From the NCBI GenBank assembly GCA_964506575.1, contig CAZDLY010000005.1, positions 5,131 through 69,130 of the forward strand: a stretch of 64,000 nt of DNA, given 5' to 3'. The notes beneath the pieces are model-generated. The model ran no database searches and had not been told where the DNA came from. It saw only the letters and a list, made by a program, of their open reading frames with translations. The stretch's first letter is position 1, and each line of letters starts with the position of its first letter. This document shows, in pieces, positions 19,446-54,329 of the stretch. The DNA is from an uncultured Akkermansia sp. Lineage in GTDB: Bacteria > Verrucomicrobiota > Kiritimatiellia > RFP12 > JAAYNR01. The position numbers were made by a program, and so were the translations under genes.

Positions 19446-19457
19446 GCGGGGCCACAC

Positions 19458-19542: not shown

Positions 19543-19607
19543 AGTTCTCAGATGCGACCGATGCGCGATGACGCGAACCTGAATCATCAGAAGGATGAAC
19601 GTGAACC

Positions 19608-21202: not shown

Positions 21203-21206
21203 GTGA

Positions 21207-23710: not shown

Positions 23711-23739
23711 GACACTCGCTGGGCCCCGTCGCGGGGCTT

Positions 23740-24414
23740 TCACTCCGCCAGCCGGCAGATCACGCAATGGCGGCAATCGAGTTCCAAGGGGACGGGGGCG
23801 TTCTTGCCAGCGGCGGCGGCGGCCCGGGCCTGGAGCTGGTTGATGAGGGCGAGGATGCAGCCGAGGGTGATGAAGCCGCCGGCGGGGAGGATGGCCAGGG
23901 TGAGGGTGTTGGGATGGATGCGGTAGGCCCAGTCTCCCCAGACCGTAAGGGTGCCATTGCCGATGATTTCGCGCACGGCGGCGATGACCGCCAGCGCGAG
24001 CGTAAAGCCCGCGCCCATCCCGATTCCGTCGGCCACGCTATACCAGACCGCGTTCTTGGCGGCAAAGGCCTCGGCCCGCCCGAGGATGATGCAGTTGACG
24101 ACGATCAGCGGGATGAAGATGCCGAGGCTGGCGGCGAGCGCCGGGGTGAACGCCTGCATGAGCAGGTCGATCACGGTGACGAAGGTGGCGATCACCACGA
24201 CATAGCAGGGAATGCGGACCTTGGCGGGGATCACGTTGCGCAGCGAGGAGATCACGGCATTCGATCCGACCAGGACAAAGGTCGCCGCCACGCCCATGCC
24301 GAGGCCGTTCTCCAGTGACGAGGTTGTCGCCAGGGTCGGGCACATGCCGAGGACCAGACGGAACGTCGGGTTCTCCCGGATGATTCCCCGTGTCAGTTCA
24401 CTGATAAAGCGCAT
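23740..24414 (-). CDS. rnfE: RnfE/RsxE-type electron-transport complex membrane subunit (isolated copy)
   Basis: ..FRLVLGMCPTLATTSSLENGLGMG.., ..GIFIPLIVVNCIILGRAEAFAAKN.., ..REIIGNGTL.. align along the whole length with RsxE/RnfE. It carries an extra Cys-rich tail (LELDCRHCVICRLAE). No other rnf genes are in the window. Confidence 0.8.
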   Translation of the reverse strand: MRFISELTRGIIRENPTFRLVLGMCPTLATTSSLENGLGMGVAATFVLVGSNAVISSLRNVIPAKVRIPCYVVVIATFVTVIDLLMQAFTPALAASLGIFIPLIVVNCIILGRAEAFAAKNAVWYSVADGIGMGAGFTLALAVIAAVREIIGNGTLTVWGDWAYRIHPNTLTLAILPAGGFITLGCILALINQLQARAAAAAGKNAPVPLELDCRHCVICRLAE

Positions 24415-24427
24415 GTCCTTCTCCCTG

Positions 24428-26116: not shown

Positions 26117-26157
26117 CGCGGGTCATCCGGAGCGTGTACTGGAGGAGACTGATGGCA

Positions 26158-27111
26158 TCAGGACCCCGATGGCGCGCGCGGCCCGGCATCGACGTCCGGA
26201 GCGGGGGTGCCCTCGGCGGGGGGGGGTGGAGACACGGGCCGTGCGGCGTCGGCGGGGTTGACGGCCTTGGCGGCATTCTCGATGTCACCGGCGTCAACGG
26301 ATACCAGGCCAGCCCGTCCCGCCGAATAGGCGAAGCACTCCGGATGTTTGCCGTCGGGGCCCACGGCGAAAACCGCCACGATCAGGCGGCCGCCGACCGG
26401 GGCGTATTCGCGCCAGATCTTGACCGTCGCGTTGGGGACGGCGTTAAACAGCAGCGGTTGCGGTGTCCCGTTGTCGAGGGTGATGACGGCATCGCCGGCC
26501 TCGACGGCGATCCGGGTGAAGCTGCGGTCGGCCGCCGTCTCGATTCGGAACGCGCACCCGGCCGGGACGCCGGCCATGGCGAACTGGTTGCCGTCGATGC
26601 GGACGCCGCCCTTGACGACCGAGACCCGGGTGGAAAGCAGATCAGCGGCGGCGGGGAGGATCGTCACCACGGCGTGTCCGGAGAAACCGGACACCGCATA
26701 GTCGGGCGTTGCGACGGCAAGCGCCGACGCCGGGGTGTCCCGGTCGGCCAGCACCTGCACCTCGCCGGCGAGGAGCGTGATGATGCGGTTGGTGGGCGCA
26801 TCGGGCGCACGCTCGACAATCGCCTGGGTGGCTTCGCCCAGGGTGACCGACGGATCCCTCTCGGCGGCGGCCCCGGCGAACGCGATGACCGCCGATCCGG
26901 CCGGTCCGGTCTGGATGGCCGTGCCGAACGGATACGCTTTTCGGTCGACGGCCGGCGCAAAGGCGGTGTCGCCGGGGCGTCTGACGTGACAGGCGCCCTG
27001 GACGCGGGTCAACTGAAAGAGCGGGACGACGCTGGCGTGTTGCGCCTGCAGCGTTCCCGTCAGAAGCGCGGCGCCGAGAAGCAGGCGATGGACGGACAAG
27101 TGCATGATCAT
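26158..27111 (-). CDS. Secreted beta-rich protein (FecR-domain-like), unknown function
   Basis: 317 aa from ATG 27111 (GGAG upstream). The signal peptide is MIMHLSVHRLLLGAALLTGTLQA. Pattern ..VQGACHVRRPGDTAFAPAV..YPFGTAIQTGPAGSAVIAF.. resembles FecR-type beta sandwiches. It is divergent from the pilus-like locus. Confidence 0.45.
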   Translation of the reverse strand: MIMHLSVHRLLLGAALLTGTLQAQHASVVPLFQLTRVQGACHVRRPGDTAFAPAVDRKAYPFGTAIQTGPAGSAVIAFAGAAAERDPSVTLGEATQAIVERAPDAPTNRIITLLAGEVQVLADRDTPASALAVATPDYAVSGFSGHAVVTILPAAADLLSTRVSVVKGGVRIDGNQFAMAGVPAGCAFRIETAADRSFTRIAVEAGDAVITLDNGTPQPLLFNAVPNATVKIWREYAPVGGRLIVAVFAVGPDGKHPECFAYSAGRAGLVSVDAGDIENAAKAVNPADAARPVSPPPPAEGTPAPDVDAGPRAPSGS

Positions 27112-27338
27112 CAGTGACTCCTTCTCATTTATCCCGCGTTCCGGTGAACGCCCGCGCCATCGGACGGACGGACGGACAGTCGGGCGGATGCACGTGAATG
27201 GCCATAGTGTATCCCAAGGCAACCGGCGCGTCAATTGCAACAAAAAGTTTTTTTGATTTTCCCTATTGCGGTTATCGCTGAAACACGGTACAGTGTTCTG
27301 AAACTGTGGTGAATCACGTGCTTTGAAAGGGGCCGGCC

Positions 27339-28016
27339 ATGAAACGGATTTTCGTGCTGCGGATAGTGTTGACGCTGGCGGGCGTGGTTTCGTTCCTCGT
27401 CGTGGTTGACCGCGCCGATGCTCAGATCGCGCCGGTCGGGCGGCCGGCGGCTCCGGCGACTCGCGCGGACAGCAAGCCGGGCGTGCTGCGGATTCGCAGA
27501 ATGCCCAAGCCCAGCCGCGCGGTGATGGTGCGAACACCGGAATTCCAGACCAGCGTGGGGCGCAGTTCGCGCACCCCCAAGAATCGGGAGTGGGCGCTTC
27601 TGGAATTCGAATACGAGACGACGCCCGAGTGGATAGACTCCCTGGACATCGCCTATTCGGTGATGACGCGGACGAAGGGATCCAACGGCAAGGATGCCTA
27701 CAGCCTCTTCCAGTCGCGTCTGACGTACATTGACATTCAGAAGGGCGAGCACACGAGCTGCGTAATACTGGCGCCGAACACGCTCGCCCGTTTTGGCGAA
27801 CCCGTGGCGGTCGCGATTGAGATCTATCAGGATGGAACGCTGCTGGAAGGCAGGTCCGAGGTTGCGCCCCGGGAGACGTCCCTGCCCGCGGAGGACTGGT
27901 GGAAGAACCCCCGGATCATCGACAATCCTCTGGTGACCCGGCGCGAGGGCTTGCTGGAGCGCAGCAAGACGCCCTTCGCGCTGATCAACATGGACGATTA
28001 CGAGGCGGTGAAATAG
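27339..28016 (+). CDS. Secreted protein, first gene of the pilus-like locus (position equivalent to Amuc_1102)
   Basis: 225 aa with signal peptide MKRIFVLRIVLTLAGVVSFLVVVDRADA. Its stop TAG at 28014-16 overlaps the GTG start of the next gene by 1 nt. Confidence 0.6.
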   Translation: MKRIFVLRIVLTLAGVVSFLVVVDRADAQIAPVGRPAAPATRADSKPGVLRIRRMPKPSRAVMVRTPEFQTSVGRSSRTPKNREWALLEFEYETTPEWIDSLDIAYSVMTRTKGSNGKDAYSLFQSRLTYIDIQKGEHTSCVILAPNTLARFGEPVAVAIEIYQDGTLLEGRSEVAPRETSLPAEDWWKNPRIIDNPLVTRREGLLERSKTPFALINMDDYEAVK

Positions 28017-29677
28017 TGTTCGCGGCAGACCACATACTGGCTCTAAACGTCGGCGCCGGCAAACTGGCGCTGGCGGAGTTTTCCGTCAGACAGGGGCGCG
28101 TCCCGGTTCTGTTGAACTACGGCTTCGGCGAGTTCGGCATGGATCCGGAGAACGAATCGGCGTCGAGCGCCTTCCTGATTGCGGCGCTGAAAGACGTGAT
28201 GAACGCCCGGGGGATCCGTCCCGCGCCGTTGCTGATGGCGGTTTCGGGGCAGCTCGTCTTCCCGCGGTTTCCCAAGATGCCTCCCGTGTCCAAGGACAAG
28301 CTGGTGCAAATGATCCAGCTCGACGCGGAGCAGAATGTGCCGTTTCCGATCACCGAGCTGGTCTGGGACTACCAGTTGATCGGCGGGGTGTCCGAGGGCG
28401 AGCAGAACGTCATGATCGTGGCCGCGAAGAACGAGACGGTGTCCGAACTCATCGTTTCGGTGGTGGAGGCCGGTCTCGATCCCGAAGTCATCGATGTCGC
28501 GCCGATGGCGCTTTACAATTGCGTCCGTTACAACTATCCCGATCTGGACGGCTGTTCGATGATTGTGGACATCGGCGCCCGGTCCACCAATCTGGTGTTC
28601 ATCGAGGAAGGCCGGTTTTTCAGCCGCTGCATCCCGGTGGCGGGCAACGCCATCACGCAGGAGCTGGCCAAGAGCTTCCAGATCGGGCATCGGGCGGCCG
28701 AGGCGCTGAAGCGGGAATGCGCGTTCGTCGCCCTCGGAGGCGTGTTTGCGCCGGTCGGTGACGAACGGGCGGACCGCGTGTCGAAGGTGGTGCGCAACGT
28801 GATCACCCGGCTGCACGCCGAAATCAGCCGGTCCATCGCCTTTTACAGGAGCCAGCAGGGGGGAAGCGCGCCCAACCGCGTCTTCCTGACCGGCGGGTCG
28901 AGCGTGATTCCCCACATGAACACGTTCTTCGCCGACAAGCTGCAGGTGGAAGTCCAGTATCTCAATCCCTTCCTGCACGTGGCGCTGGCGCCGCCGATCA
29001 ACACGGAACAGCTCGGCCGGGACGCCTTCATGCTGGCCGAGGTGATCGGTCTGGCCCTGCGGCGCAAGCTGGCCTGTCCGGTGGAAATCAACCTGCTGCC
29101 GCCCGCGCTGGCGCGGCGCAAGACCTTCCGGCGGCGGATTCCCTACTTTGGCCTGGCGGCCGCGGGTCTCGTGTTGACGGCCGGTGTCTGGACGATCTAC
29201 ACGAAGGGGACGCTCAAGCTCTACGAAAGGCAGGCCCAGCAGGTGGAAGAGCGCGTGAACCAGTTGAGAAACGAGCAGAAGAAGCTCGATGCCGCGCGGG
29301 CTCAATTCACCGCCGTTCAAAAGGAGGCGGACGCGATCCGGGGCCGGATTGCCGGCCGCACGCAACTGGTGCGTGCGATGGACGCGATACGGGAGTGCCT
29401 CTTTCCCGGAATGTGGCTGACCTCGATCGAGCCGGTCCGCAACCCGCAGGGCGAGCTGGTTCAGTTGCGCCTGTCGGGCCGCGGGTGGGTGGATCGGCTG
29501 AAGGAACTGGAAAACAAGAACGACGGGCCGGCAACGGCAGTGGAACTGTTCCGCGATCAATTGAAGATGCGGCCGATCTTTGCGACCGACGGGGTGAAGA
29601 TCACGAACGAGCGGGAAGAGGCGGACGGATCGGTGCGCGGATTCGTGGTGGAGGCGGCCTTGTCACCGATTTCTTGA
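28016..29677 (+). CDS. pilM: PilM (actin-like ATPase) fused to a PilN-like membrane/coiled-coil module
   Basis: ..ILALNVGAGKLALAEF.., ..MIVDIGARSTNLVFIE.., ..VFLTGGSSVIPHM.. are PilM/FtsA-type actin-fold motifs. These are followed by EINLLPPALARRK (the PilN INLLP motif), a TM helix (YFGLAAAGLVLTAGVWTIY) and a coiled coil. GTG 28016 is the only plausible start after the upstream stop. Confidence 0.8.
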   Translation: MFAADHILALNVGAGKLALAEFSVRQGRVPVLLNYGFGEFGMDPENESASSAFLIAALKDVMNARGIRPAPLLMAVSGQLVFPRFPKMPPVSKDKLVQMIQLDAEQNVPFPITELVWDYQLIGGVSEGEQNVMIVAAKNETVSELIVSVVEAGLDPEVIDVAPMALYNCVRYNYPDLDGCSMIVDIGARSTNLVFIEEGRFFSRCIPVAGNAITQELAKSFQIGHRAAEALKRECAFVALGGVFAPVGDERADRVSKVVRNVITRLHAEISRSIAFYRSQQGGSAPNRVFLTGGSSVIPHMNTFFADKLQVEVQYLNPFLHVALAPPINTEQLGRDAFMLAEVIGLALRRKLACPVEINLLPPALARRKTFRRRIPYFGLAAAGLVLTAGVWTIYTKGTLKLYERQAQQVEERVNQLRNEQKKLDAARAQFTAVQKEADAIRGRIAGRTQLVRAMDAIRECLFPGMWLTSIEPVRNPQGELVQLRLSGRGWVDRLKELENKNDGPATAVELFRDQLKMRPIFATDGVKITNEREEADGSVRGFVVEAALSPIS

Positions 29678-29694
29678 GAAGGGCCGGATCGGAC

Positions 29695-30597
29695 ATGCAG
29701 AAAAAGCAGATTATGGTGTTCGGGTTGAGCGTGGCGATGGCCGGCGTGCTGGTCCGCAGCGGGTGCGTCCTGGCGTCGGCTTTGTCGCACACGGAGGATG
29801 TCGCCCGGCAACGCGATGACAAGCGCGCGGAACTGGGGCGGATGTATAATGAGCCGGTGTTCCCCTCCCCCGCCCATGTGGCGATGATCCGGAATGACGC
29901 CAGTGACCTGACGAACTGGAAAACCGGCTTCATCGAGACCCAGCGGGCCATCCTGCAGGTCGAGACGAATCTGTCGCCCTCGCAATTCAAGATTCAAGTC
30001 CTCCAGCCTGCCATCCGGGAACTCGCCAAGACACAGACGGACGGGGGGTCGCGCATCGTCGCCGCCGATTTTGCATTCGGCTTTGACGCCTACATTCCGG
30101 GGGACCGGATGCCGGCGGTCGCCGACATCCCCAAACTGGCGATGCAGCTTGAAATGACACGGCGGCTGTGTCGCGAGGTGTTCGCGGCCAACATCATCGC
30201 CCTGCGCCAGTTCCAGAACGCCGTCTCCGAAAGCGCGGCTCCCGTCTCCCCGGCTTCCGCATTGCGGGTCAACAGGCTCGGCGCCCCGGCGGCCCCGCCC
30301 CGCCCGACCGCCGACCCCGATGGCCCGTCCCGCGCCCTGACCGGCCGGCATGCTTTTACGCTGGAGTTTACAGCCCGTAAGGATGCGATGCTGACCGTTC
30401 TGAACCGGCTCGCGACCTGCGACCTGTTTGTGACGGTGAAGGCGATTGACGTCCGGAAGTCCGGAACGGATGTGAAAGCGCCGCCTGAAAAATGGAGCGA
30501 GATGGGTGACACGCACCATCAGCAACGGGTGGTCTCGGGTCCCGAACTGGATGCGCCCCTGTTGGTTCGCATGACGGTTGAAGTCGAGCTTTTCTGA
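29695..30597 (+). CDS. PilO-like / Amuc_1100-like membrane-anchored protein
   Basis: 300 aa. N-terminal TM (IMVFGLSVAMAGVLV), a coiled coil, a Pro/Ala-rich linker, and a C-terminal block ..LTVLNRLATCDLFVTVKAIDVRKSG..QQRVVSGPELDAPLLVRMTVEVELF. By recall this block parallels the Amuc_1100 C-terminus (..AMNAITGMQDYLFTVNSIRIRNE..QQVIKPYMGKEQVFVQVSLNLVHF). Confidence 0.6.
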   Translation: MQKKQIMVFGLSVAMAGVLVRSGCVLASALSHTEDVARQRDDKRAELGRMYNEPVFPSPAHVAMIRNDASDLTNWKTGFIETQRAILQVETNLSPSQFKIQVLQPAIRELAKTQTDGGSRIVAADFAFGFDAYIPGDRMPAVADIPKLAMQLEMTRRLCREVFAANIIALRQFQNAVSESAAPVSPASALRVNRLGAPAAPPRPTADPDGPSRALTGRHAFTLEFTARKDAMLTVLNRLATCDLFVTVKAIDVRKSGTDVKAPPEKWSEMGDTHHQQRVVSGPELDAPLLVRMTVEVELF

Positions 30598-30607
30598 GGG
30601 GTCTGCC

Positions 30608-31657
30608 GTGGCAAAAATTGGGAATCAATCGGCGTTGATTGAGCAGTACGACAAGGTGCTGGCGGTTGTCGTGCTGGTGGGTCTCTTGTTGTCGTTGCTG
30701 TGGCTGACGTCCTCGCGTGAGCGGCGGCAACAGGAGGAAAACGCCTATCAGAACGCTTTGAACGCGCTCACGCCCAGGCCGCTGGAAGGCCCTCGATTCG
30801 ATATGGGCGTGTACTCCAATGCGCAGACGCAACTCGTCCATCCCAAGCAGATCGCCCTGGACACTCCGGATCTGGGACTCTTTGTGCCTGAGCGCCGCGT
30901 CTGGTGCGTCAAATGCTCCAAGCCCATCCCGTATGCCGCCGAAACCTGCCCGTTCTGCAGCGAGGCGCAACCGAAACTGGCAGGTCCGGTTCCCGACACC
31001 GACGGCGACGGCATGTTCGACGTCTGGGAGCGTCAGTACGGCTTTGATCCGTTCGATCCGAGCGATGCCGCCGGCGACGTCGACGGGGACGGCTTCAGCA
31101 ACGTCGAAGAATTTCTGGCCAGAACCGATCCGCGTGATGCCCAAAACCACCCGCCGATCGATGTGCTCCTACGGGTCAAGGATGTGGTTGCCAAGCGTAT
31201 CCCGCTGGCGTTGCGCGGAAAAAGCGGGATGCCCGATGGCAAGTTCCAATGCCAGTTCACCCAGCAGGACGGTGAACGGCGGTCGTTCTTCGTCCGAGAG
31301 GGAGAAGCGATCAGCAACGACTGGTCCAACACCGGTTTCGTCCTGCTGGAGTTCACCGAAAGTTTTGAGAAACGGCCTCACCCGACCCTCGGGTCTGTCA
31401 CGGTTGAGACGTCCGTCGCCACGATCAAGCGACTGGCCGACGAGAAGGTGTTTCGCCTGCGAATGAACGACGAGGAGTTTTCGGAGACGGTGGCCGAATT
31501 GGTTCTCCCCGCGGATGGATCGACCTATGCCGTCGTCGCGGGGGGCACATTCGCCCTGCGAGGCGAACGCTATAACGTAATCAGTGTTGACAACAAGGCC
31601 CAAACTGTTGTAATAGAAAGCACATCAACTCGGAAAAGGTTGACGCTCGGGAGGTAG
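30608..31657 (+). CDS. Membrane-anchored zinc-ribbon + calcium-binding (TSP3/DxDxDG) repeat protein (position equivalent to Amuc_1099)
   Basis: TM LAVVVLVGLLLSLLWL; zinc ribbon CVKCSKPIPYAAETCPFC; two D-x-D-x-DG loops (DTDGDGMFDVWE.., DVDGDGFSNVEEF); a beta-rich C-terminal domain. The start is either GTG 30608 (after the upstream stop, GAGGGG RBS) or ATG 30578 (20-nt overlap). Confidence 0.6.
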   Translation: MAKIGNQSALIEQYDKVLAVVVLVGLLLSLLWLTSSRERRQQEENAYQNALNALTPRPLEGPRFDMGVYSNAQTQLVHPKQIALDTPDLGLFVPERRVWCVKCSKPIPYAAETCPFCSEAQPKLAGPVPDTDGDGMFDVWERQYGFDPFDPSDAAGDVDGDGFSNVEEFLARTDPRDAQNHPPIDVLLRVKDVVAKRIPLALRGKSGMPDGKFQCQFTQQDGERRSFFVREGEAISNDWSNTGFVLLEFTESFEKRPHPTLGSVTVETSVATIKRLADEKVFRLRMNDEEFSETVAELVLPADGSTYAVVAGGTFALRGERYNVISVDNKAQTVVIESTSTRKRLTLGR

Positions 31658-31737
31658 GGCGGATGCGTCGTCCGTCAGAATGGTTTCACGGTTCCACTTA
31701 TTTTTAATTGCTGTCTGTTCTAAAGGAGTCCCCCCCA

Positions 31738-34734
31738 ATGACCGGTTCATCTCGCTCGATGCGTGTTCAACTGACCGCAGCCGTTCTTGTTCTCGCCGGC
31801 GCGTGGGCGCACGCGCAGGACGATCATGGCGACATCGACGCGCTGCTGCAGGATTTGGGCGGTGGCGCGAAGCCGAAAGCCGCACCCGCCGTCCCGGTTG
31901 TCGCGGTTCCGGAGCCGGAAGCCCCTCCCCCCGCCGACGCCGGGACAGACCCCGTCAAGGCCGTGGTTGCCGAGCCGTTGCCCGGAGACGAGCCGTTGCC
32001 CGGAGACGAGCCGGAGGCCGGGACGGCCCCGGCGGAGCCAGAGGGAACAGGGGCCGACGCCGATCCCGCCGCGCCGGATGTTCTGAGCACTCCGGAATCG
32101 CGCGAGGCCGTGATTTCGGAACTGGCGACCCTTGAACGGATGCGCCGCGAAGCCAAGATCAGGCAGGGCGAAAATGAACTGGCGGCGGCACGGGAGGATC
32201 TGGCCAAAGGGCGGTATGACGAGGCCAAACGCAAGTTTTCGAACGCGCTGAGCTATATTCCGGACACGCCCGGCACCCGTGATTCGCGCATCGCGGCCGA
32301 GAAGGGGCTGGCCAACGCGCATTATCAGCATGCGCTGTCCCTCCGCAAAAAAGGGCTTCTGGACCAGGCGCTCGTCGAGGCGCGCACCGCGCAGGGCAAA
32401 GGCCAGGCACAGGCCGACCGGTTGATTGGAATGATCCAGAAAGAGCAGAAACTTCCGCCGATAAAGCCCGAGACCGTCGAGGTGCCGCGCGTGAGCCAGC
32501 CCGATTTCAAGGAGGATCGCGAGAAGGCGGCGGCCGGCCTGCGCCGCGCCCGCCAGCACTATGTGGCCGGCGAGTACGCCCGGGCGCGGGACGAGGCGGA
32601 ACTGGTCGTCAAGGATGAGCCGTTCAATACCGAGGCCATCCGCCTGCTCCGCCGCATCGCCGAACGGATGAACGAGGTTTCGAACCTGGAGCATCTGACC
32701 ACCCGCGAGCGGATGATCCGCGACGTGAGCGCCGCCTGGACGCCCGACCGGTATGGCGTCGACGCCGCCTTTGCCGTCGACCTGAAACCGAAGGCTGACG
32801 ACCCGTCCCTCGTCAGCAAGGCGCCGGACAAGGGCCTCTCGCAGGAGCAGGAAATCCAGAAGAAGATGCAGACGATCATGATTCCGTCGGTCCAGTTCAA
32901 CAAAGCCAACATCACCGATGTCATTTCGTTCCTCGAGAAGGCCAGCCGCGAGTACGACGCCGAAAAGGCGCCCGAGAAGCGCGGCATCAACTTTGTAATC
33001 AAGCCCGGCGGTGGCGGCGGGGCAACCCCTCCAAGCGGCGGCACGGCGACGCCCGATCCCTTTTCGCCCGCGGCAACCGGAGACGGGACGGCGGACGGCC
33101 TCGGCGCCGGGCCCATCACGTTCTCGGCCCACTATGTGACCCTGTACAGCGTCCTGAATACCGTCTTGGACGTCTCCAACATGAAGTTCAGGATCAAGGG
33201 CAACATCGTCACCATCATGCCGATGAACGTCCCGGACGACATCCTCATCACACGCTCCTACAACGTCCTGCCGACGCTCACCGAACGCGTCTTGTCCACT
33301 CACAAGGAGATCGCCCCGGGCGGTGGCTTGGACACCCCGCCCGATATGAGCTCGGCGACCGACTGGAAGGGTTTCTTCGGACAGATGGGCATCAAATGGC
33401 CCGAAGGTTCGGCCATCTCCTATCTGGCGACCATCGGCAAGCTCCGCGTGTCCAACACGGCAGACAATCTGGCCAATTTTGAGCAGGTGCTCGAGGAACT
33501 CAACGTCACCCCGCGCCAGATCGAGGTCGAAGCCCGCTTTGTCGAAGTCGCCCAGGAAGATCTCAACTCCCTCGGGTTCGAGTGGATCCTGAATGGAAAC
33601 CTGGGGATCAACACGGGGATCGGGTCGCTCGACAACTTCACATCCCTCCCGGATGGCAATCTGAATCCGCTGAGCGGCAATGCTTTTCTTGGCCCATACA
33701 AGTCGGGCGATCTGATTTTTGACGGCGGAGGGTCGGGCGGAAGGTGGGCCGATGTGGTGACCCCAGGCGTGCCGGATCCCCTCAATCCGGGAGGCTGGTT
33801 GATACCCCCCGGATCGTCGAGACAGTGGCAATGGGATACCAAGCCGCCCGCGAAGAGTTTCGGCCGCGGCATGCGTTTCCTCGACTCGACCGGAAACGGC
33901 GTGACCCCCGCCGGGACCACCAAGAATGACGACCTGCTGAAGCTGACCGCCGGGCTGGACGGCAACGCGATCTCCATGATCCTCCATGCGCTCAGCCAGA
34001 AGACGAGCACGGACGTCCTCTCCGCTCCCAAGGTGGTCACCAAGTCGGGCCAGGAGGCCATCATGAAGGTCATCACCGAATTCATCTACCCGACCACCTT
34101 TGACGTGCAGACCACTCCGACCACCACCGGCACTACCGGCAACACCATCCCGGGTGCAACGACGGTGGCGCCCTCGGACTTCGAAACCCGCGATGTCGGC
34201 GTGATTCTGCAGGTGCTCCCGGAGGTTTCGGCCGATGGCCAGATGATCAACCTGATGATGAACCCCCAGGTCGTCGCGCCGCCTGAGTGGAAGAATTACG
34301 GGTCGAAGGTTCCCCAATACACGCAGGAGACAGTAGTGGATCTTCTGGGACGATCAATCACGCGCACCGTGTTGCTGACGGATGCCGACGGCAACCCGAT
34401 TTATCTGGAGCAGCCCATGGAACAGCCGATCTTCAGGGTGCGGTCGGTCTCGACGAGCATCTCGATCTACAACGGCGCCACGGTCGTCATGGGCGGAATG
34501 ATCACCGAGGAGCGTGTGGCCACGTTTGACAAGATCCCGTTCCTTGGCGACCTCCCCTATCTGGGACGCCTGTTCCAGAGCAAGGGGGAGCGGACGGAAA
34601 AGCGCAACCTGCTGATCTTCGTGACGGCTCGCCTCGTGGACCCGGCCGGGCGCGTGGTGCGCACGGCTGGCGAGGAGAAACTGTTCACCGGCCTGCCCGA
34701 GTCGCTGACGGGCGCACCCGCCACGCCGAAATGA
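31738..34734 (+). CDS. Secretin (type II/III secretion system / PilQ family) with a long N-terminal extension
   Basis: 998 aa from ATG 31738 (AAGGAG RBS). Signal peptide ..LVLAGAWAHAQDD; an acidic Pro-rich region; a helical TPR-like region; then the secretin C-domain (..ISMILHALSQKTSTDVLSAPKVVTKSGQEAIMKV.., ..IPFLGDLPYLGRLFQS..NLLIFVTARLV). Confidence 0.85.
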   Translation: MTGSSRSMRVQLTAAVLVLAGAWAHAQDDHGDIDALLQDLGGGAKPKAAPAVPVVAVPEPEAPPPADAGTDPVKAVVAEPLPGDEPLPGDEPEAGTAPAEPEGTGADADPAAPDVLSTPESREAVISELATLERMRREAKIRQGENELAAAREDLAKGRYDEAKRKFSNALSYIPDTPGTRDSRIAAEKGLANAHYQHALSLRKKGLLDQALVEARTAQGKGQAQADRLIGMIQKEQKLPPIKPETVEVPRVSQPDFKEDREKAAAGLRRARQHYVAGEYARARDEAELVVKDEPFNTEAIRLLRRIAERMNEVSNLEHLTTRERMIRDVSAAWTPDRYGVDAAFAVDLKPKADDPSLVSKAPDKGLSQEQEIQKKMQTIMIPSVQFNKANITDVISFLEKASREYDAEKAPEKRGINFVIKPGGGGGATPPSGGTATPDPFSPAATGDGTADGLGAGPITFSAHYVTLYSVLNTVLDVSNMKFRIKGNIVTIMPMNVPDDILITRSYNVLPTLTERVLSTHKEIAPGGGLDTPPDMSSATDWKGFFGQMGIKWPEGSAISYLATIGKLRVSNTADNLANFEQVLEELNVTPRQIEVEARFVEVAQEDLNSLGFEWILNGNLGINTGIGSLDNFTSLPDGNLNPLSGNAFLGPYKSGDLIFDGGGSGGRWADVVTPGVPDPLNPGGWLIPPGSSRQWQWDTKPPAKSFGRGMRFLDSTGNGVTPAGTTKNDDLLKLTAGLDGNAISMILHALSQKTSTDVLSAPKVVTKSGQEAIMKVITEFIYPTTFDVQTTPTTTGTTGNTIPGATTVAPSDFETRDVGVILQVLPEVSADGQMINLMMNPQVVAPPEWKNYGSKVPQYTQETVVDLLGRSITRTVLLTDADGNPIYLEQPMEQPIFRVRSVSTSISIYNGATVVMGGMITEERVATFDKIPFLGDLPYLGRLFQSKGERTEKRNLLIFVTARLVDPAGRVVRTAGEEKLFTGLPESLTGAPATPK
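31972..32007 (+). repeat. Perfect 18-bp tandem duplication inside the secretin gene (EPLPGD x2)
   Basis: gagccgttgcccggagac occurs at 31972-31989 and again at 31990-32007, followed by a partial third copy (gagccgg). Confidence 0.9.
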
Positions 34735-34759
34735 CACTTTCCTGAGAGACTTCTACCCT

Positions 34760-34818
34760 CTTAATCGTGATCCTGATCTTGGAGGCTCCTGCACCCCCCC
34801 ATCCGGGGTGTTTGCAGG
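34760..34818 (+). repeat. Intergenic repeat modules B (cttaatcgtgatcctgatcttgg) and C (ggctcctgcacccccccatccggggtgtttgcagg), contiguous here
   Basis: Module B matches the reverse complement of 43519-43541 (cttaatcgtRatcctRatcttg). Module C matches the reverse complement of 43101-43136 in about 30 of 36 positions. Confidence 0.75.
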
Positions 34819-34822
34819 ATGG

Positions 34823-34854
34823 AAGTCAGAATTCAGAAGTCAGGAGTCAGAATA
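34823..34854 (+). repeat. 7-nt periodic low-complexity module (GAAGTCA-like x4-5)
   Basis: gaagtca gaattca gaagtca ggagtca gaat. Confidence 0.7.
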
Positions 34855-34958
34855 ATAGAATGCGTTGCCCGTGAGAGGGTTCCCATTCTGAATTTTGAAT
34901 GCTGCGCTTGCAGAACCGACGAAGGCGGTTTTGCAAGCGCCTCGCGTCCCTAATATTT

Positions 34959-34978
34959 CCTTCGTGCTCTTCGTTGTG
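34959..34978 (+). repeat. CTTCGTGyTCTTCGTkG module (forward copy)
   Basis: See 10194-10217. The match is short. Confidence 0.3.
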
Positions 34979-35048
34979 CAAATTGCCTTTTTTGGTTCAT
35001 TCACGGTCCCCTGCGATCTTGGCGACTGAAATCCTGTCTCATTTTATG

Positions 35049-35093
35049 TTCCATCCGGCAGCAGGCCGGCGGCCCGACTGAACGCTGAACCCT
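35049..35093 (+). repeat. Repeat module A: 25-nt core ttccatccggcagcaggccggcggc followed by ctgaacgctgaaccc
   Basis: The core matches 54281-54305 at 23 of 25 positions. Both copies are preceded by ctcaNNNNNgt and followed by a CTGAACC-type periodic tail. Confidence 0.8.
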
Positions 35094-41980: not shown

Positions 41981-42087
41981 CCGATCTCACCCCCTCTGCA
42001 ACCCGGGATCATCACGCGTCACAGCACACGACGCGTCGTCCGGTGGGTTGAGGTGGAGAGAATACAGCAAAACGCCTCTATGGCGCA

Positions 42088-42119
42088 ACGCCAAATTTCC
42101 CGCACGCCAAATTTCCCGC
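42088..42119 (+). repeat. Perfect 16-nt tandem duplication (acgccaaatttcccgc x2)
   Basis: 42088-42103 equals 42104-42119. It lies immediately upstream of the FN3 remnant. Confidence 0.9.
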
Positions 42120-42149
42120 AGGGCGTAATCGGTTAGCGTTGGCGCCAAC

Positions 42150-42269
42150 GTGATCACCTTCAGCGAGAACGTCGCCAGCGGCACGTATCTCTACCGCGTG
42201 CGCGCCGTCAACAGCGCGGCGGGCGCGGCATCGGCCTATTCGAACACGGCCAGCGTAACCGTGCGTTGA
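42150..42269 (+). pseudogene. C-terminal ~39-aa remnant of a fibronectin-type-III-domain protein
   Basis: VITFSENVASGTYLYRVRAVNSAAGAASAYSNTASVTVR* shows the terminal Y.YRV.A.N..G.S.YS pattern of FN3 domains with a native stop. There is no upstream coding continuation. Confidence 0.4.
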
Positions 42270-42440
42270 AGGAGGCGGAGGAAACAGGATATCTATGGCT
42301 ACCGACCTTTTCAGCATCTGCTGCAGCCTACATCCTCCGCGCGCCGACGCCCGCGGCCAACGCGACCCGCCGCCCGGAACGGCTTCACCCAACGGCCGCA
42401 CCTGCCGTTGCGGGCAGGATGCGGACCGGGGGACCGGTGA

Positions 42441-42974
42441 TCAGGGCGTGGCCGGCGGGTTCACCGCGCCTGCGCCATCCCGTTTTTCGGCCTTGATCTT
42501 CTCGCGCTCCGCCTTGCGCTCGCCCTTCTGCGTGGCGCGGTGCTCCTGATTTTCCTCTTTCTGCTTGGCGAAATGCGCCTTGATCTGCGCCTTGAGTTGC
42601 TCCGCCGTGGCGTCCGTCTCCCCGATCAGCGTATCGAAGAACTTCATATTTTCCTCGTGCTGCTCGGATCGAAAGGCCACGTTCTCCTGGTATTGCTGCT
42701 CGAAGAACGCGACGATGTCGGTCTTTTCCGCATCCGTCAGTTTCTTGCTATTCGCCAGCCGCTCCTTGAGCTTCGCGATGAAGGCGTCATGACGCTTCTG
42801 CCACTCGGCCATCCTCGCGTCATGCTTGGCGTCGCGAGCCTCTTTCCTCTCGGCGATCCTCTCGGCGCGTTTCGCCCCCTTGTTTGCATTCTCGGCCGGT
42901 TTATCCTCGGCCATTGCCGTCGCGCCAATCAAACACAACACGCCCACCGCCACCATTCCCGCGCAGGTCTTCAT
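42441..42974 (-). CDS. Secreted Lys/Glu-rich helical protein, unknown function
   Basis: 177 aa from ATG 42974. The signal peptide is MKTCAGMVAVGVLCLIGATAMA. The rest is highly charged helical sequence (..AERKEARDAKHDARMAEWQKRHDAF..). Confidence 0.55.
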   Translation of the reverse strand: MKTCAGMVAVGVLCLIGATAMAEDKPAENANKGAKRAERIAERKEARDAKHDARMAEWQKRHDAFIAKLKERLANSKKLTDAEKTDIVAFFEQQYQENVAFRSEQHEENMKFFDTLIGETDATAEQLKAQIKAHFAKQKEENQEHRATQKGERKAEREKIKAEKRDGAGAVNPPATP

Positions 42975-43100
42975 ACTCACGTCTCCCGTTGACATCGGCA
43001 CGTTGAATTGTTTCTGGTCCGGTGCGGGCCGTGCTCAGTCACCCGCACCATGACGCATGGTTTGCTTAACGCGCCGGGCGCTCGGATATTGTATGAGGCG

Positions 43101-43136
43101 CCTGAAAACACCCCGGAGGGGTGGGGTGCAAGAGCC
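43101..43136 (-). repeat. Repeat module C, reverse orientation
   Basis: The reverse complement ggctcttgcaccccacccctccggggtgttttcagg matches 34784-34818. Confidence 0.75.
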
Positions 43137-43160
43137 TGAGCGCATCCCCGTTTCACTGAC

Positions 43161-43448
43161 TTGCGCATGAAATGCAAGGGAGACTGGATCAAGGCGGTCA
43201 AGACGGCAATGAAAGGCACCACGGATCTCCCCGTCTATTCCATTCGGGCGCCCGCCCTCATTCCGGGTGTCGGCTTCTCCGATCACTCCAGCTACTGGCC
43301 TCGCGGCTTCAACGCGCTCATGATCACGGACACCGCCTTTTATCGAAACACAGAGTACCACACGATCAACGATACGGAGGACCGGCTTGACTATGGCCGG
43401 ATGTCCAAGGTCGTTGTGGCTGTGTTTGAGGCGATACGAAACCTATGA
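43161..43448 (+). pseudogene. C-terminal ~90-aa fragment of an M28-family metallopeptidase
   Basis: ..GVGFSDHSSYWPRGFNALMITDTAFYRNTEYHTINDTEDRLDYGRMSKVV.. matches the M28 C-terminal zinc-ligand region (SDH..F...G.PA....DTA..RN..YH...DT...LDY). Only the 3' end and the stop are present. The track 'start' is a TTG. Confidence 0.7.
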
Positions 43449-43510
43449 TCGCAAGGGCGCTTACTTAAGCGATGCTTCCGATCATAATCATAATCCGTTC
43501 TCCACCATGA

Positions 43511-43545
43511 GATTAAGATCAAGATTAGGATTACGATTAAGATGG
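43511..43545 (-). repeat. 6-nt periodic module (GATNNN x6) containing repeat module B in reverse orientation
   Basis: gattaa gatcaa gattag gattac gattaa gatgg. The reverse complement of 43519-43541 matches 34760-34782. Confidence 0.75.
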
Positions 43546-43693
43546 CAAAAGCGCCTTATATGAGCGCCATTACCCTATGATTGGCGAACCGCCGGACACT
43601 GCCGGGGCCAGCGTTTTCTTGTCGCCAGACGGGGGGACATGATAAGCTGGCGGGGTCTGGGGTTCAGAGTTTTGCACGGAATAGCTTCGTTAT

Positions 43694-43723
43694 CTTTCCT
43701 GAACCCTGAACCCCGAACCCTGG
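43694..43723 (+). repeat. CTGAACC-type 7-nt periodic module (tail part of module A)
   Basis: ctttcctgaaccctgaaccccgaaccctgg, compared with ctttcctgaacccctgaaccct at 54305-54326. Confidence 0.7.
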
Positions 43724-43780
43724 TTTTTCAGATCCTGGTGACGGCAAGAGCCTAGAAGAGGATTGAGCGATGGGACGCTT

Positions 43781-44557
43781 ATGATGGATGGCAGCGCACA
43801 ACAGGAGGGCCGGAGCCTGGCGCGGGGACACGCCGCGCCGTTTCTGGTGTGGGTCGGGTGCATTGCGGCGCTCGCGGCGGCGGAGCGGCTGGTCAATCTC
43901 CCGGCGCTCGCCCAGCCCTGGGTCTACGCGGCCAAGTCGGCGGTCTGCGCGGCGTTGTTCCTGTGGTGGCGGCCGTGGCGGATCTATCCGGCGCTGCGGC
44001 TCCGCAACGCGCTGTGGGCGGTCGCGGCGGGGCTGGCCGTGGCGGGGCTGTGGGTGCTGCCCGAAACGGTGTGGTTTGGACGGGTGTTCCCGGCGGCGCA
44101 GGCGTTCTACCACCGCTGGCTGATCCTGATGCCCGGCGTCTATCCCGACTATTACGATCCCGCGCTGTTCCCGCGGCTGCCGCCGGGGTTCGCGGGGGCG
44201 GTCTACGATCCGGCGGTCTGCGGCTGGGGGCTGGCCCTGGCTCGGCTGGCCGGCTCGGCGCTTGTGATTGCGGTCATCGAGGAGTTTTTCTTCCGCGGGT
44301 TCCTCTACCGCTGGCTCCGCCAGGAGGCGTTCTGGAAAATCCCCCTGACCCGCTGGGACCTGGCGACGTTCTGGATCGTCGTGCTGGTTTTCGGGATCGA
44401 GCACGACCGCTGGCTGGCGGGAATGGCGGCGGGCGCGGTCTACGGACTGCTGGCGGTGCGCACGGGCGATCTCTGGGCCGCCGCCCTGGCGCACGGATTG
44501 ACCAATCTTGCGCTCGGCACCTATGTGTTGCTTTGCGGCCGCTACGGTTTCTGGTAA
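43781..44557 (+). CDS. CPBP-family intramembrane glutamic endopeptidase (CAAX protease-like)
   Basis: Motif 1 is VIEEFFFRGFLY, motif 2 is FGIEH, motif 3 is ALAHGLTNL, and there are multiple TM helices. ATG 43781 is preferred over the track's TTG at 43763. Confidence 0.8.
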   Translation: MMDGSAQQEGRSLARGHAAPFLVWVGCIAALAAAERLVNLPALAQPWVYAAKSAVCAALFLWWRPWRIYPALRLRNALWAVAAGLAVAGLWVLPETVWFGRVFPAAQAFYHRWLILMPGVYPDYYDPALFPRLPPGFAGAVYDPAVCGWGLALARLAGSALVIAVIEEFFFRGFLYRWLRQEAFWKIPLTRWDLATFWIVVLVFGIEHDRWLAGMAAGAVYGLLAVRTGDLWAAALAHGLTNLALGTYVLLCGRYGFW

Positions 44558-53320: not shown

Positions 53321-53401
53321 CTTGAGGCGGGAGAATCGAATAAATCGATAGAATCGACGGAATCGAATCGGTCGAATCGGTCGAATCTATCGATTCCATC
53401 G
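53321..53401 (+). repeat. GAATCGA-type periodic array, left flank of the four-helix-bundle gene
   Basis: It contains the 24-nt core aatcgacggaatcgaatcggtcga (53352-53375). This matches 54214-54237 at 22 of 24 positions, in the same orientation. It ends in tcgattccatcg, as the right copy does. Confidence 0.8.
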
Positions 53402-53419
53402 AAACGAAAGGAGCGGGAC

Positions 53420-54169: not shown

Positions 54170-54185
54170 GAGCGAGTTCTGGTTT

Positions 54186-54256
54186 TTCGAGGGGAATCGA
54201 ATGAGTCGAGAAAATCGATGGAATCGAATCCGTCGATTCCATCGATTCCATCGCTC
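54186..54256 (+). repeat. GAATCGA-type periodic array, right flank of the four-helix-bundle gene
   Basis: See 53321-53401. It contains the perfect 8-bp inverted pair ggaatcga/tcgattcc (54222-54242). Confidence 0.8.
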
Positions 54257-54280
54257 CCGATAAACCCGGCTCAATCCTGT

Positions 54281-54329
54281 TTCCATCCGGCTGCAGGCTG
54301 GCGGCTTTCCTGAACCCCTGAACCCTACA
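54281..54329 (+). repeat. Repeat module A, second copy (core ttccatccggctgcaggctggcggc + ctttcctgaacccctgaaccct)
   Basis: The core is 23/25 identical to 35049-35073, and the tail is similar to 43694-43716. Confidence 0.8.

What the first reader, a model, noticed from the sequence alone, without database searches (positions are those of the whole stretch)
43101..43545. Modules B and C, contiguous at 34.76 kb, are separated here by 382 nt carrying a 5'-truncated M28 peptidase fragment
At 34760-34818 module B is followed after 1 nt by module C. Here both occur in the opposite orientation: C at 43101-43136 and B at 43519-43541. The interval between them contains only the last ~90 codons and native stop of an M28 metallopeptidase (43161-43448), oriented opposite to the element.

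There are two readings. The B/C junction may be a recombination or insertion hot-spot that has captured or truncated a gene. Alternatively, the 34.76-kb copy may be the deletion product of a similar arrangement. In either case the repeat family is associated with a structural rearrangement rather than being a passive spacer.
Basis: partly seen in the sequence, partly recalled or inferred. Interest (0 to 1): 0.65.

Follow-up and report, generated by a model that had tools for sequence, protein, structure and literature searches.

The report
Decaying peptidase gene beside small repeats
The peptidase fragment is the leftover of a gene that is still whole in sibling strains from the same lakes. 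The two "modules" beside it are unrelated small repeats, one a mobile hairpin element and one a conserved hairpin upstream of the neighbouring gene, so this is ordinary strain-level gene decay in a repeat-rich spacer.

Summary
The sequence facts hold. C (34783-34818 vs 43137-43101, 33/37) and B (34759-34781 vs 43542-43520, 21/23) each occur twice, inverted. Between the second pair lies the last ~90 codons and stop of an M28 peptidase. The join is not an assembly artefact: three JGI assemblies and a Logan contig show it.

The reading of B plus C as one element split by captured DNA is not supported.

- B at 43.5 kb is one arm of a 122-nt hairpin element (43452-43573). It is flanked by a 10-bp direct repeat, is tens to hundreds of times multicopy in lake metagenomes, is 97% identical at an unrelated locus of another species, and is absent from sibling haplotypes.
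- C at 43.1 kb is single-copy. It is conserved 37/37 upstream of the neighbouring 177-aa gene in a relative that has no M28.
- An intact ~324-335-codon M28, 99% identical over the shared part, sits directly upstream of the same CAAX-protease gene in co-occurring strains. Two relatives carry different internal deletions and one has none of the gene.
- The window's 5' break (43176|43177) joins M28 to a 40-nt piece of a third multicopy repeat through a 3-nt microhomology.

The spacer is a structural-variation hot spot, but B/C adjacency plays no part in that.

The parts
34759..34782 (+). B1: solitary 23-24-nt stretch of TAATCN/TGATCN hexamers, 25 nt after the secretin stop codon
   Evidence: 21/23 match to 43542-43520. 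Depth is at baseline in lake metagenomes, so it is not a copy of the multicopy element.
34783..34818 (+). C1: small GC hairpin (CACCCC / GGGGTG with an outer CCTGCA / TGCAGG stem)
   Evidence: 33/37 to C2. It folds. Depth is at baseline. It does not meet the terminator consensus.
34818..34901 (.). Heptamer-array hairpin (GTCAGAA-type units); truly multicopy
   Evidence: Depth 1700-7100 against about 70, with many different flanks.
34902..34943 (.). Palindrome GCGCTTGCAGAACCG...CGGTTTTGCAAGCGC; the most abundant repeat seen here
   Evidence: Depth 17000-35000 against about 70. Fold -31 kcal/mol, z -5.4. A 92.5% copy is in L017.
42441..42974 (-). Gene for a 177-aa secreted, Lys/Glu-rich protein (p177)
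   Evidence: Called in the JGI contigs. Homologues found. It is the divergent neighbour of the CAAX gene in L082.
42975..43100 (-). Conserved upstream leader of p177
   Evidence: Together with C2, the part nearest C (43068-43137) is 66/70 identical to L082, where the protein is only 68% identical. The leader is also kept in L077-L081.
43101..43137 (-). C2: hairpin at the outer edge of the p177 leader
   Evidence: 37/37 identical in L082 and L083 at the same place relative to p177, with no M28 present. Depth is at baseline.
43140..43179 (+). 40-nt piece (outer end at 43140) of a third, multicopy repeat. Other copies form the inverted ends of units about 180 nt long
   Evidence: Depth 250-800 against 30-80. 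The left boundary at 43140 is sharp and the flanks differ between copies. Contigs of 181-184 nt carry it inverted at both ends.
43177..43448 (+). 3' remnant of the M28 peptidase gene (last ~90 codons and stop at 43446-43448; the ORF can start at the ATG at 43167, inside the repeat piece)
   Evidence: Pfam match and tblastn boundaries. A 1774-nt contig with an intact gene is identical from 43177 onward apart from 2 of 264 nt.
43442..43451 (+). Left copy of the 10-bp direct repeat CCTATGATCG (includes the M28 stop codon)
   Evidence: Read from the sequence. In haplotypes without the element, the stop region runs straight into the sequence that follows the right copy.
43452..43573 (.). Hexamer-array hairpin element (MITE-like). 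Left arm 43481-43497, loop TTCTCCACCATGAG 43498-43511, right arm 43512-43545 (contains B2, 43519-43545), second small hairpin 43546-43571. Multicopy core 43456-43559
   Evidence: Depth 1700-21800 against about 70, with sharp edges and varied flanks. 72/74 identity to L018 530-603 at an unrelated locus, plus two further L018 copies. Minus-strand fold -37.1 kcal/mol, z -4.6. Absent from sibling haplotypes.
43574..43583 (+). Right copy of the direct repeat (CCTATGATTG, 9/10)
   Evidence: Read from the sequence. It continues as GCGAACCGCCGGACACTGCCGGGG, exactly what follows the M28 stop in the element-free haplotype.
43652..43722 (.). Heptamer-array hairpin (GGGGTCT/GGGTTCA ... CTGAACC units) in the spacer; single-copy at 90% or more
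   Evidence: Fold -36.3 kcal/mol, z -3.5. Depth is at baseline.
43740..43780 (+). Conserved leader of the CAAX gene (contains GCAAGAGCCT, the same 10-mer as the outer end of C2)
   Evidence: Shared with L017 and L082. The 10-mer repeat is at 43128-43137 and 43744-43753.
43781..44557 (+). CAAX (Rce1-like) protease gene, first gene of a block conserved in all relatives
   Evidence: Pfam PF02517. 60 related loci.

Best explanation
The window comes from a freshwater Lentisphaerota population. In this population a complete M28 peptidase gene (about 324-335 codons) lay directly upstream of, and co-directional with, a CAAX-protease gene.

In the haplotype captured by the window, an illegitimate deletion removed the first ~245 codons and whatever lay further upstream. 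The deletion used a 3-nt microhomology (AGG). It joined codon Gln of '...NQGDW...' (43177) to position 40 of a copy of a multicopy repeat. That repeat copy sat next to the hairpin C2 and the leader of the divergently transcribed 177-aa gene.

Separately, a 122-nt non-coding hairpin element inserted right after the M28 stop codon and duplicated 10 bp of target. Its arms are tandem hexamers, and module B2 is its right arm.

So C2, the M28 remnant and B2 are three unrelated neighbours: a conserved hairpin of the p177 upstream region, a dying gene, and a mobile miniature element.

The B1/C1 pair at 34.76 kb is a single-copy hexamer stretch next to a second, diverged copy of the C hairpin, in another repeat-filled spacer.

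Shown: the intact allele and three other alleles, the presence/absence of the element, the copy numbers, the junction and the conservation of C2.

Inferred: the direction of events (deletion from an intact state on the same chromosome), and that the element moves by transposition.
For: **Ancestral position of M28.**
- L016 (CAAX 94% identical) has M28 directly upstream of CAAX. About 115 N-terminal codons are fused in frame to the last 13 codons, which match the window's at 47/49 nt.
- L139 has a different in-frame internal deletion at the same place.

**Intact allele.**
- A 1774-nt Logan contig in run X5 (depth 92.7) carries L016 1-481 at positions 671-1151 with 1 difference. It carries window 43177-43440 at positions 1511-1774 with 2 differences.
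- After the L016 break it continues as GGTGGTCGGCGCGCACTACGAC (VVGAHYD). Just before 43177 it reads ...AATTTCGTGACGGTGGTGGGAACGTGGAACC (NFVTVVGTWN).
- The intact-type N-terminal region is also present in X1, X3 and X10, at ratios to the truncated allele that differ between samples. That points to strains rather than paralogues.

**Junction.**
- Other copies of the 43140-43179 repeat run to 43179, and the intact gene matches from 43177, so AGG is shared by both.

**Element insertion.**
- A haplotype in X1 and X3 reads ...CCCTATGATCGGCGAA|CCGCCGGACACTGCCGGGG. This equals the window sequence with 43452-43573 removed and one copy of the 10-mer left.
- Depth is 1700-21800 against about 70, with sharp edges at 43452-43456 and about 43559.
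- Copies are at unrelated loci in L018: 72/74 identical overall, and 27/27 for B.

**C2.**
- It is 37/37 identical and in the same position upstream of p177 in L082 and L083. There p177 and CAAX (93% identical to the window's) are direct divergent neighbours with no M28.
- Its depth is at baseline.

**Hot spot.**
- Nucleotide synteny with the sister species ends at 42099.
- The gene upstream of CAAX differs in L016, L017, L018 and L019.
Against: - The DNA upstream of the intact gene (810 nt in the X5 contig, 250 nt in L139) does not match anything at window positions 42000-43176. It is therefore not shown that p177, C2 and the repeat copy lay on the same chromosome upstream of an intact M28 before the deletion.
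- L082 is more diverged from the window than the intact allele is, yet it already has p177 next to the CAAX spacer and keeps a 21-nt piece of the B hairpin in the same order. A simple tree does not fit, so recombination between strains must be invoked.
- The terminal inverted repeats of the hairpin element are weak (about 65-70% over about 28 nt). No transposase partner was found.
- One of the 10 bases of the flanking duplication differs.
- Copy numbers come from summed contig depths of mixed communities, not from one closed genome.
Confidence: 0.7

Rival explanations
1. The fragment was imported. A recipient with p177 and CAAX as direct neighbours (like L082) took up DNA from a strain with intact M28. 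One crossover was homologous, in the CAAX gene or its spacer. The other was illegitimate, at the AGG microhomology (homology-facilitated illegitimate recombination). On this view the recipient 'captured' a gene piece.
For: L082 shows that the M28-free arrangement exists in a close relative (CAAX 93%) and keeps C2 and a piece of the B hairpin. The M28 remnant is 99% identical to the intact allele, whereas p177 and the CAAX gene are more diverged between relatives. This suggests mosaic ancestry.
Against: The model needs the hairpin element, with its duplication of the M28 stop region, to have been in the donor or to have inserted afterwards. It also needs the L082 hairpin piece to be an independent remnant. 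It does not change the conclusion that the 3' side is collinear with the native M28-CAAX arrangement, or that B and C are unrelated.
Confidence: 0.2
2. B and C are two halves of one composite repeat element. Their junction is a hot spot into which the M28 piece was inserted, or the contiguous 34.76-kb copy is a deletion derivative of such an arrangement.
For: Within 64 kb, the only two (TAATCN)n-type stretches lie at the only two loci that hold C, in the same order and relative orientation. In L082 a piece of the B hairpin lies 65 nt from C2.
Against: - B2 pairs with its own left arm and has its own flanking duplication.
- The element is tens to hundreds of times multicopy with unrelated flanks, while C is at baseline depth.
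- Three L018 copies have no C nearby.
- B1 and C1 are single-copy.
- M28 is in its native place.
- The piece kept in L082 is the loop and left arm, not the B arm.
Confidence: 0.04
3. The ~90-residue M28 C-terminal ORF is a conserved stand-alone mini-gene rather than a remnant.
For: All 42 database relatives of the fragment are short, 53-159 aa. In L015 and L013 the homology starts within 1-3 codons of the same point (DQGDW), in different contexts. The ORF is intact.
Against: - The intact allele differs by 2 of 264 nt, so the ORF is open simply because the truncation is recent.
- Many of the short hits are cut by contig ends.
- The fragment keeps only one of the metal-ligand motifs. It also carries Gly at a position where about 90% of relatives have Asp.
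- The flanks of the other fragments are unrelated.
- Sibling strains delete other parts of the gene.
Confidence: 0.04
4. Assembly chimera: the join between the repeat piece and M28 is an artefact of assembling through repeats.
For: The break coincides with a multicopy 40-mer, and Logan unitigs break at 43169/43177 in three runs.
Against: The sequence is identical in two other JGI assemblies from different samples. A 240-nt Logan contig in a fourth data set spans 43143-43382 with no difference.
Confidence: 0.02

Closest known systems
Pseudogene remnants made by microhomology-mediated deletion (ordinary bacterial gene decay)
   Same: A dispensable gene is lost piecemeal. Three independent deletion alleles have short microhomologies at the joints: AGG in the window, GTCCAA(A/G)GTCGT in L016 and CGCGCTC in L139. 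One relative has none of the gene, and an intact allele is still segregating.
   Different: One deletion end lies inside a multicopy repeat. It is unusual to catch four to five alleles of one locus co-occurring in the same lakes.
Bacterial MITEs, especially BrickBuilt of Porphyromonas gingivalis, a MITE that contains a tandem repeat array (PMC4596501); see also the MITE review PMC10969869
   Same: Small, non-coding, strictly intergenic and multicopy. It folds into a long hairpin, contains tandem short repeats, shows presence/absence between strains and has a flanking direct duplication.
   Different: The tandem units here are 6 nt and form both arms of the hairpin around a conserved 14-nt loop. 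BrickBuilt has 23-nt units in one direction. The terminal inverted repeats are weak, and no parent insertion sequence is known.
Pneumococcal BOX/RUP/SPRITE and enterobacterial REP/BIME clusters
   Same: Several unrelated small repeat families pile up in the same intergenic spacers and insert next to or into one another (PMC10969869). This alone can produce recurring neighbour pairs such as B next to C. C and the abundant 34902-34943 palindrome share the outer motif AGGC(T/G)C(T/C)TGCA.
   Different: C itself is not high-copy at 85-90% identity or more. A REP-associated tyrosine transposase was not looked for in the window. A Y1 transposase-like gene was only seen near a p177 homologue in L078-L079.

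Membership tests
Peptidase M28 (Pfam PF04389) | Significant match to the family profile | tested here: met
   E 1.2e-4, 22.3 bits against a cut-off of 21.3, profile positions 141-189 of 193. 57-70% identity to M28 C-termini.
Peptidase M28 (Pfam PF04389) | Complete catalytic domain with the N-terminal metal ligands (HxD, DDNASG and E-E regions) | tested here: not met
   Only the last ~90 codons are present. There is no N-terminal homology in the window. The missing part, including VVGAHYD and DDNASGVAAL, is seen in the sibling alleles.
MITE (miniature inverted-repeat transposable element), for the 43452-43573 element that contains B2 | Small, non-coding, multicopy and dispersed with unrelated flanks | tested here: met
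   122 nt. Depth 1700-21800 against about 70, with varied loose ends. Copies at unrelated loci of L018.
MITE (miniature inverted-repeat transposable element), for the 43452-43573 element that contains B2 | Target-site duplication and an empty site in relatives | tested here: met
   CCTATGATCG / CCTATGATTG flank it. An element-free haplotype with one copy of the 10-mer is present in X1 and X3. This is one locus only.
MITE (miniature inverted-repeat transposable element), for the 43452-43573 element that contains B2 | Terminal inverted repeats matching those of an autonomous insertion sequence | tested here: inconclusive
   The ends are only about 65-70% complementary over about 28 nt (by eye), and L018 copies have other outer ends. 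No transposase partner was searched for or found.
REP/BIME-type extragenic palindrome, for C | Short imperfect palindrome in extragenic DNA | tested here: met
   Folds of C1 and C2. Both are intergenic.
REP/BIME-type extragenic palindrome, for C | High copy number in the genome | tested here: not met
   Depth is at baseline over 43101-43135 and 34783-34803. There are two copies in 64 kb. More diverged copies would be missed.
REP/BIME-type extragenic palindrome, for C | Cognate REP-associated tyrosine transposase in the genome | not tested
   The whole genome is not in hand. A weak Y1_Tnp hit was seen only in a relative's contig.
Intrinsic (Rho-independent) terminator, for C | GC-rich stem-loop followed by a U-run (at least 5 of 8) | tested here: not met
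   No terminator-like site at C1 or C2; the tails have only 3-4 T. Hairpins with the same core in unrelated genomes do carry long T-runs, so C resembles a terminator with a weakened tail.
   Copy numbers differ by about two orders of magnitude. The flanks of B-element copies are unrelated. L018 copies lack C. C2 occurs with p177 in a spacer that holds only a 21-nt piece of the B hairpin, 65 nt from C.

The most novel reading that the evidence does not exclude
The hexamer-array hairpin, its heptamer-array relatives and the AGGC(T/G)CTTGCA palindromes may together form an undescribed set of very abundant mobile intergenic elements in freshwater Lentisphaerota. Their arms are built from tandem 6-7-nt units. 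On this reading they turn over within species and drive much of the strain-level structural variation, including deletion end-points such as the one that killed M28. They might also act at the RNA level, since the minus-strand fold is much stronger than the plus-strand fold.
Probability: 0.3. Interest if true: 0.5.

Novelty: new member of a known kind. Interest (0 to 1): 0.3.

Why it matters
For genome annotation, the ORF at 43167-43448 should be marked as a pseudogene remnant. The spacer should be marked as a pile of small repeats, not as one composite element.

For biology, the locus is a clean natural example of a gene caught in the act of being lost. One lineage shows an intact allele, three different deletion alleles and a null arrangement, with a miniature element coming and going beside it.

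The repeat families themselves reach tens to hundreds of copies per genome equivalent and have arms made of tandem hexamers or heptamers. As far as one literature search showed, they are not described for this phylum. They would be worth a dedicated census once a closed genome exists.

Tried and rejected
- **Misassembly.** Rejected.
- **N-terminal M28 elsewhere in the window, by inversion.** tblastn found nothing. The DNA upstream of the intact allele has no match in the window.
- **tRNA or integration-site remnant.** The 13-mer AATCATAATCCGT (43486) equals the tRNA-Met anticodon arm (500-512). It is explained by the (ATAATC)n arm of the hairpin element.
- **Known RNA families.** No Rfam match at either locus apart from one meaningless sub-threshold hit.
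- **C as a canonical terminator.** Not met.
- **Genome-wide census of C in GTDB species genomes.** There were 55 hits, all generic terminator-like hairpins in unrelated taxa. None carried the AGGCTC prefix that flanks C and none was titled Lentisphaerota, so the scan gave no copy-number information.
- **A site-specific mechanism for the recurring truncation point.** Fragments in L013 and L015 share the DQGDW boundary, and L003 and L005 share another. The upstream flanks show no similarity above shuffles. L003 is an IS110-type insertion, and several other short hits are contig-end artefacts. This is left unexplained; it may be ascertainment by a query that starts at that point.
- **Similarity between L082's 60-nt filler and the 43140 repeat.** Not significant.
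- **A fuzzy-regex scan.** Timed out and was replaced by blastn-short.

Full report
**1. What the window is**

The window is 65% G+C. Exact look-ups place its Rho and ClpX proteins in clusters named 'Lentisphaerota bacterium' MAGs. The sequence occurs in many freshwater and lake metagenomes.

The gene order around the finding is:
- secretin (31708-34734), CoaE, Rho, trigger factor, ClpP, ClpX, an RluD-like synthase and S21 (-);
- a 177-aa secreted protein, here called p177 (42441-42974, -);
- the finding itself;
- a CAAX/Rce1-like protease (43781-44557, +), a 236-aa protein and a small export protein.

**2. The observation**

Both matches are real and sit at the stated places.
- C: 34783-34818 against 43137-43101, 33/37 with one gap, E about 1e-3 within the window.
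- B: 34759-34781 against 43542-43520, 21/23, E 0.006-0.02.
- Each has only these two copies in 64 kb.

The ORF between them matches only the last quarter of the Peptidase_M28 profile, positions 141-189 of 193. A stop codon lies just upstream in frame. No M28 N-terminal homology exists anywhere in the window.

The arrangement is not an assembly artefact.
- The 900 bp around it are identical in two further JGI assemblies, and a third carries the fragment and spacer.
- Logan contigs of three runs cover 42865-43169.
- A 240-nt contig of a fourth run covers 43143-43382 without a difference.

**3. The M28 piece is a relic in its native place**

I searched metagenome contigs with the downstream CAAX protein and obtained a graded series of relatives.

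- **L016** (CAAX 94% identical) has M28 immediately upstream of CAAX. The gene has an internal in-frame deletion: about 115 N-terminal codons are joined to the last 13 codons. Those 13 codons match the window at 47/49 nt, and the joint has a 9-12-nt microhomology.
- **L139** has a different in-frame internal deletion...DDNASGVAAL|MITDTAFYRN..., with the microhomology CGCGCTC, at the same place.
- **An intact allele exists.** I laid Logan contigs of four lake metagenomes on the window and on L016.
  - One 1774-nt contig (X5, depth 92.7) carries L016 1-481 at its positions 671-1151 with 1 difference. It carries window 43177-43440 at positions 1511-1774 with 2 differences.
  - The distance between the two parts gives a gene of 324-335 codons.
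  - After the L016 break the contig reads VVGAHYD. Just before 43177 it reads NFVTVVGTWN, continuing into QGDW.
- The intact-type N-terminal region is also present in X1, X3 and X10. Its depth relative to the truncated allele changes from sample to sample: roughly 1.2 in X5, 0.8 in X1 and 0.4 in X3. This points to co-occurring strains rather than two loci of one genome.

The window therefore holds one of at least three independent deletion alleles of a gene that is still whole in sibling strains. The remnant ORF is open only because the truncation is recent.

**4. The 5' break**

High-resolution depth shows that C2 (43101-43137) is at baseline. In contrast, 43140-43179 (GCGCATCCCCGTTTCACTGACTTGCGCATGAAATGCAAGG) is about 5-15 times over baseline.

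The left boundary of this repeat at 43140 is sharp and its flanks differ between copies. Contigs of 181-184 nt carry the sequence inverted at both ends.

Other copies of the repeat run to 43179, and the intact M28 matches from 43177. The joint is thus 43176|43177 with AGG shared by both parents. The break lies inside the repeat, not at its tip. That argues for illegitimate deletion or recombination rather than a transposase cut.

**5. Module B2 belongs to a mobile hairpin element**

B2 is the right arm of a hairpin. The left arm, (TAATCN)n, is at 43481-43497. A conserved loop, TTCTCCACCATGAG, is at 43498-43511. The right arm, (GATTNN)n, is at 43512-43545 and is followed by a second small hairpin. 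The minus strand folds at -37.1 kcal/mol, z -4.6.

- **Copy number.** Depth rises from about 70 to 1700-21800 between 43452-43456 and about 43559. There are many loose ends of unrelated sequence. This means tens to hundreds of copies per genome equivalent in these communities.
- **Other copies.** An 84%-CAAX relative, L018, has a 72/74-identical copy (27/27 for B) 5.4 kb from its CAAX gene. It has two further variants elsewhere. None has C or M28 nearby.
- **Empty site.** The element (43452-43573) is flanked by CCTATGATCG (43442-43451, including the M28 stop) and CCTATGATTG (43574-43583).
  - A haplotype in X1 and X3 reads ...CCCTATGATCGGCGAA|CCGCCGGACACTGCCGGGG. This is the window sequence minus the element and minus one repeat copy.
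  - L016, L139, X5 and X10 have yet another, 22-nt spacer.

The element behaves like a MITE, with a target duplication, an empty site, multiple copies and an intergenic location. However, its terminal inverted repeats are weak and no transposase partner is known.

**6. Module C2 belongs to the neighbouring gene**

I searched with p177 and fetched contexts. In L082 and L083, p177 and CAAX are direct divergent neighbours with a 196-nt spacer and no M28. L082's CAAX is 93% identical to the window's.

C2 is 37/37 identical there and in the same position. It is followed by the same leader, 66/70 identical over C plus the first 33 nt, although the p177 protein is only 68% identical. Other p177 homologues (L077-L081) keep the leader but lack C.

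So C2 marks the outer edge of a conserved p177 upstream region. It is single-copy at 85% identity or more.

C does not meet a terminator consensus. Hairpins with the same core in unrelated genomes are ordinary terminators with long T-runs. The outer motif of C, AGGCTC(T/C)TGCA, is shared with the very abundant palindrome at 34902-34943 and with long palindromes in the sister species. C therefore looks like a low-copy relative of that REP-like family.

**7. The 34.76-kb locus**

Depth profiling shows that B1 and C1 are single-copy.

The truly repeated parts of that spacer are the heptamer-array hairpin at 34818-34901 (depth 1700-7100) and the palindrome at 34902-34943 (depth 17000-35000).

In the sister species (ClpX above 90% identical) the same spacer has no B or C. 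It carries another hairpin, a (CAGTGTT)x12 array and a long palindrome instead. These spacers are rebuilt quickly from a common stock of small repeats.

That turnover, as in the pneumococcal BOX/RUP/SPRITE clusters (PMC10969869), is enough to produce an occasional repeated neighbour pair. The co-occurrence of the only two (TAATCN)n stretches with the only two C copies, in the same order and orientation, remains mildly non-random: roughly 1 in 40-80 by a crude count of spacers. I cannot fully explain it.

**8. The locus is a hot spot, but not because of a B/C junction**

- Nucleotide synteny with the sister species stops at 42099.
- The gene upstream of CAAX is different in L017 (a 1567-aa protein), L018 (a different gene that ends 50-100 nt upstream of CAAX; not identified) and L019.
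- Counting the intact allele, the two internal deletions, the window's truncation, the M28-free L082 and three spacer forms, at least six structural haplotypes exist among close relatives.

L082 also keeps a 21-nt piece of the hairpin's loop and left arm (20/21), in the same order and orientation as in the window. Either L082 descends from a window-like state by further deletions, or the window arose when an L082-like chromosome recombined with a donor carrying M28. I rank in-situ deletion first (0.7) and the import model second (0.2). Both make the M28 remnant collinear with the native M28-CAAX arrangement, and both leave B and C unrelated.

**9. Comparison with known things, and verdict**

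The M28 piece is an ordinary pseudogene remnant. The B2 element is a new MITE-like family whose closest described analogue is BrickBuilt, a MITE with an internal tandem array (PMC4596501). C is a REP- or terminator-like hairpin of low copy number. No Rfam family matches.

Its interpretation is partly supported: the gene is truncated, the locus is a hot spot and repeats are involved. The specific B/C model is not supported.

Interest is modest. This is a tidy case of gene loss in progress, and a lead to an undescribed repeat family. It is not a new kind of system.

Noticed in passing
window 53321-53406 and 54182-54258: Arrays of 9-nt GAATCGNNN units in inverted orientation (55-nt arms, 78% complementary) flank a stretch of about 0.8 kb. 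They are built on the same principle as the hexamer and heptamer hairpins.
   Followed up: no
window 42975-43100 (minus strand): The upstream leader of the 177-aa gene is far better conserved than the protein: 66/70 nt against 68% aa versus L082. It contains nested hairpins and has no Rfam match, so it is a candidate cis-regulatory RNA.
   Followed up: partly
window 34902-34943; L017 234-273: The palindrome GCGCTTGCAGAACCG...CGGTTTTGCAAGCGC is the most abundant repeat seen, with summed depth 17000-35000 against about 70. It folds at -31 kcal/mol (z -5.4). The sister species has longer palindromes with the same AGGCTCTTGCAAAAC ends.
   Followed up: partly
window 35078-35092, 43699-43713, 54309-54325; L007 about 2640-2670: Two or three tandem CTGAACN heptamers lie upstream of gene starts: a few nt before the CoaE start and about 60-70 nt before the CAAX start (the gene after 54.3 kb was not checked). 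The sister species has TGAACAC x3 at the same place before CoaE. They may be a leader or promoter-proximal motif.
   Followed up: no
L007/L008/L010 about 2400-2480: The sister species carries a (CAGTGTT)x12 heptamer array in the secretin-CoaE spacer where the window has B1 and C1. The spacer content is completely replaced even though the flanking genes are about 90% identical.
   Followed up: no
L015 1298-1585; L013 56-322; L003 618-989; L005 830-1186: M28 C-terminal fragments occur in unrelated metagenomes. In L015 and L013 the homology starts within 1-3 codons of the window's boundary (DQGDW). L003 and L005 share a second boundary (GSQSYP). The contexts differ: an IS110-type transposase in L003, long palindromes in L015, and an overlapping hydrolase gene in L013. 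The flanks are unrelated. This is unexplained and may be ascertainment.
   Followed up: partly
L016 473-487; L139 about 690-700: Two further independent in-frame internal deletions of the same M28 gene occur in close relatives, each at a short microhomology. L082 lacks the gene altogether. The gene has been lost repeatedly in one lineage.
   Followed up: yes
L078/L079 1-383; L077 1458-1760 and L078 2035-2337: Genes with weak Y1 (IS200/RAYT-like) and Y2 transposase domains lie a few kb from the p177 homologue in relatives. They are possible mobilisers of the palindromic repeats.
   Followed up: no
window 43486-43498 and 500-512: A 13-nt exact match exists between the hairpin's left arm and the anticodon arm of tRNA-Met (470-545). 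It is a by-product of the (ATAATC)n repeat, not an integration scar.
   Followed up: yes
window 43128-43137 and 43744-43753; L082 about 4828-4838 and 4931-4941: The 10-11-nt motif AGGCTC(T/C)TGC(A/C), read on the p177 strand, brackets the whole variable part of the p177-CAAX spacer in both the window and L082. One copy is the start of C2 and the other lies in the CAAX leader. It may be a half-site of the REP-like palindromes and a substrate for deletions.
   Followed up: no
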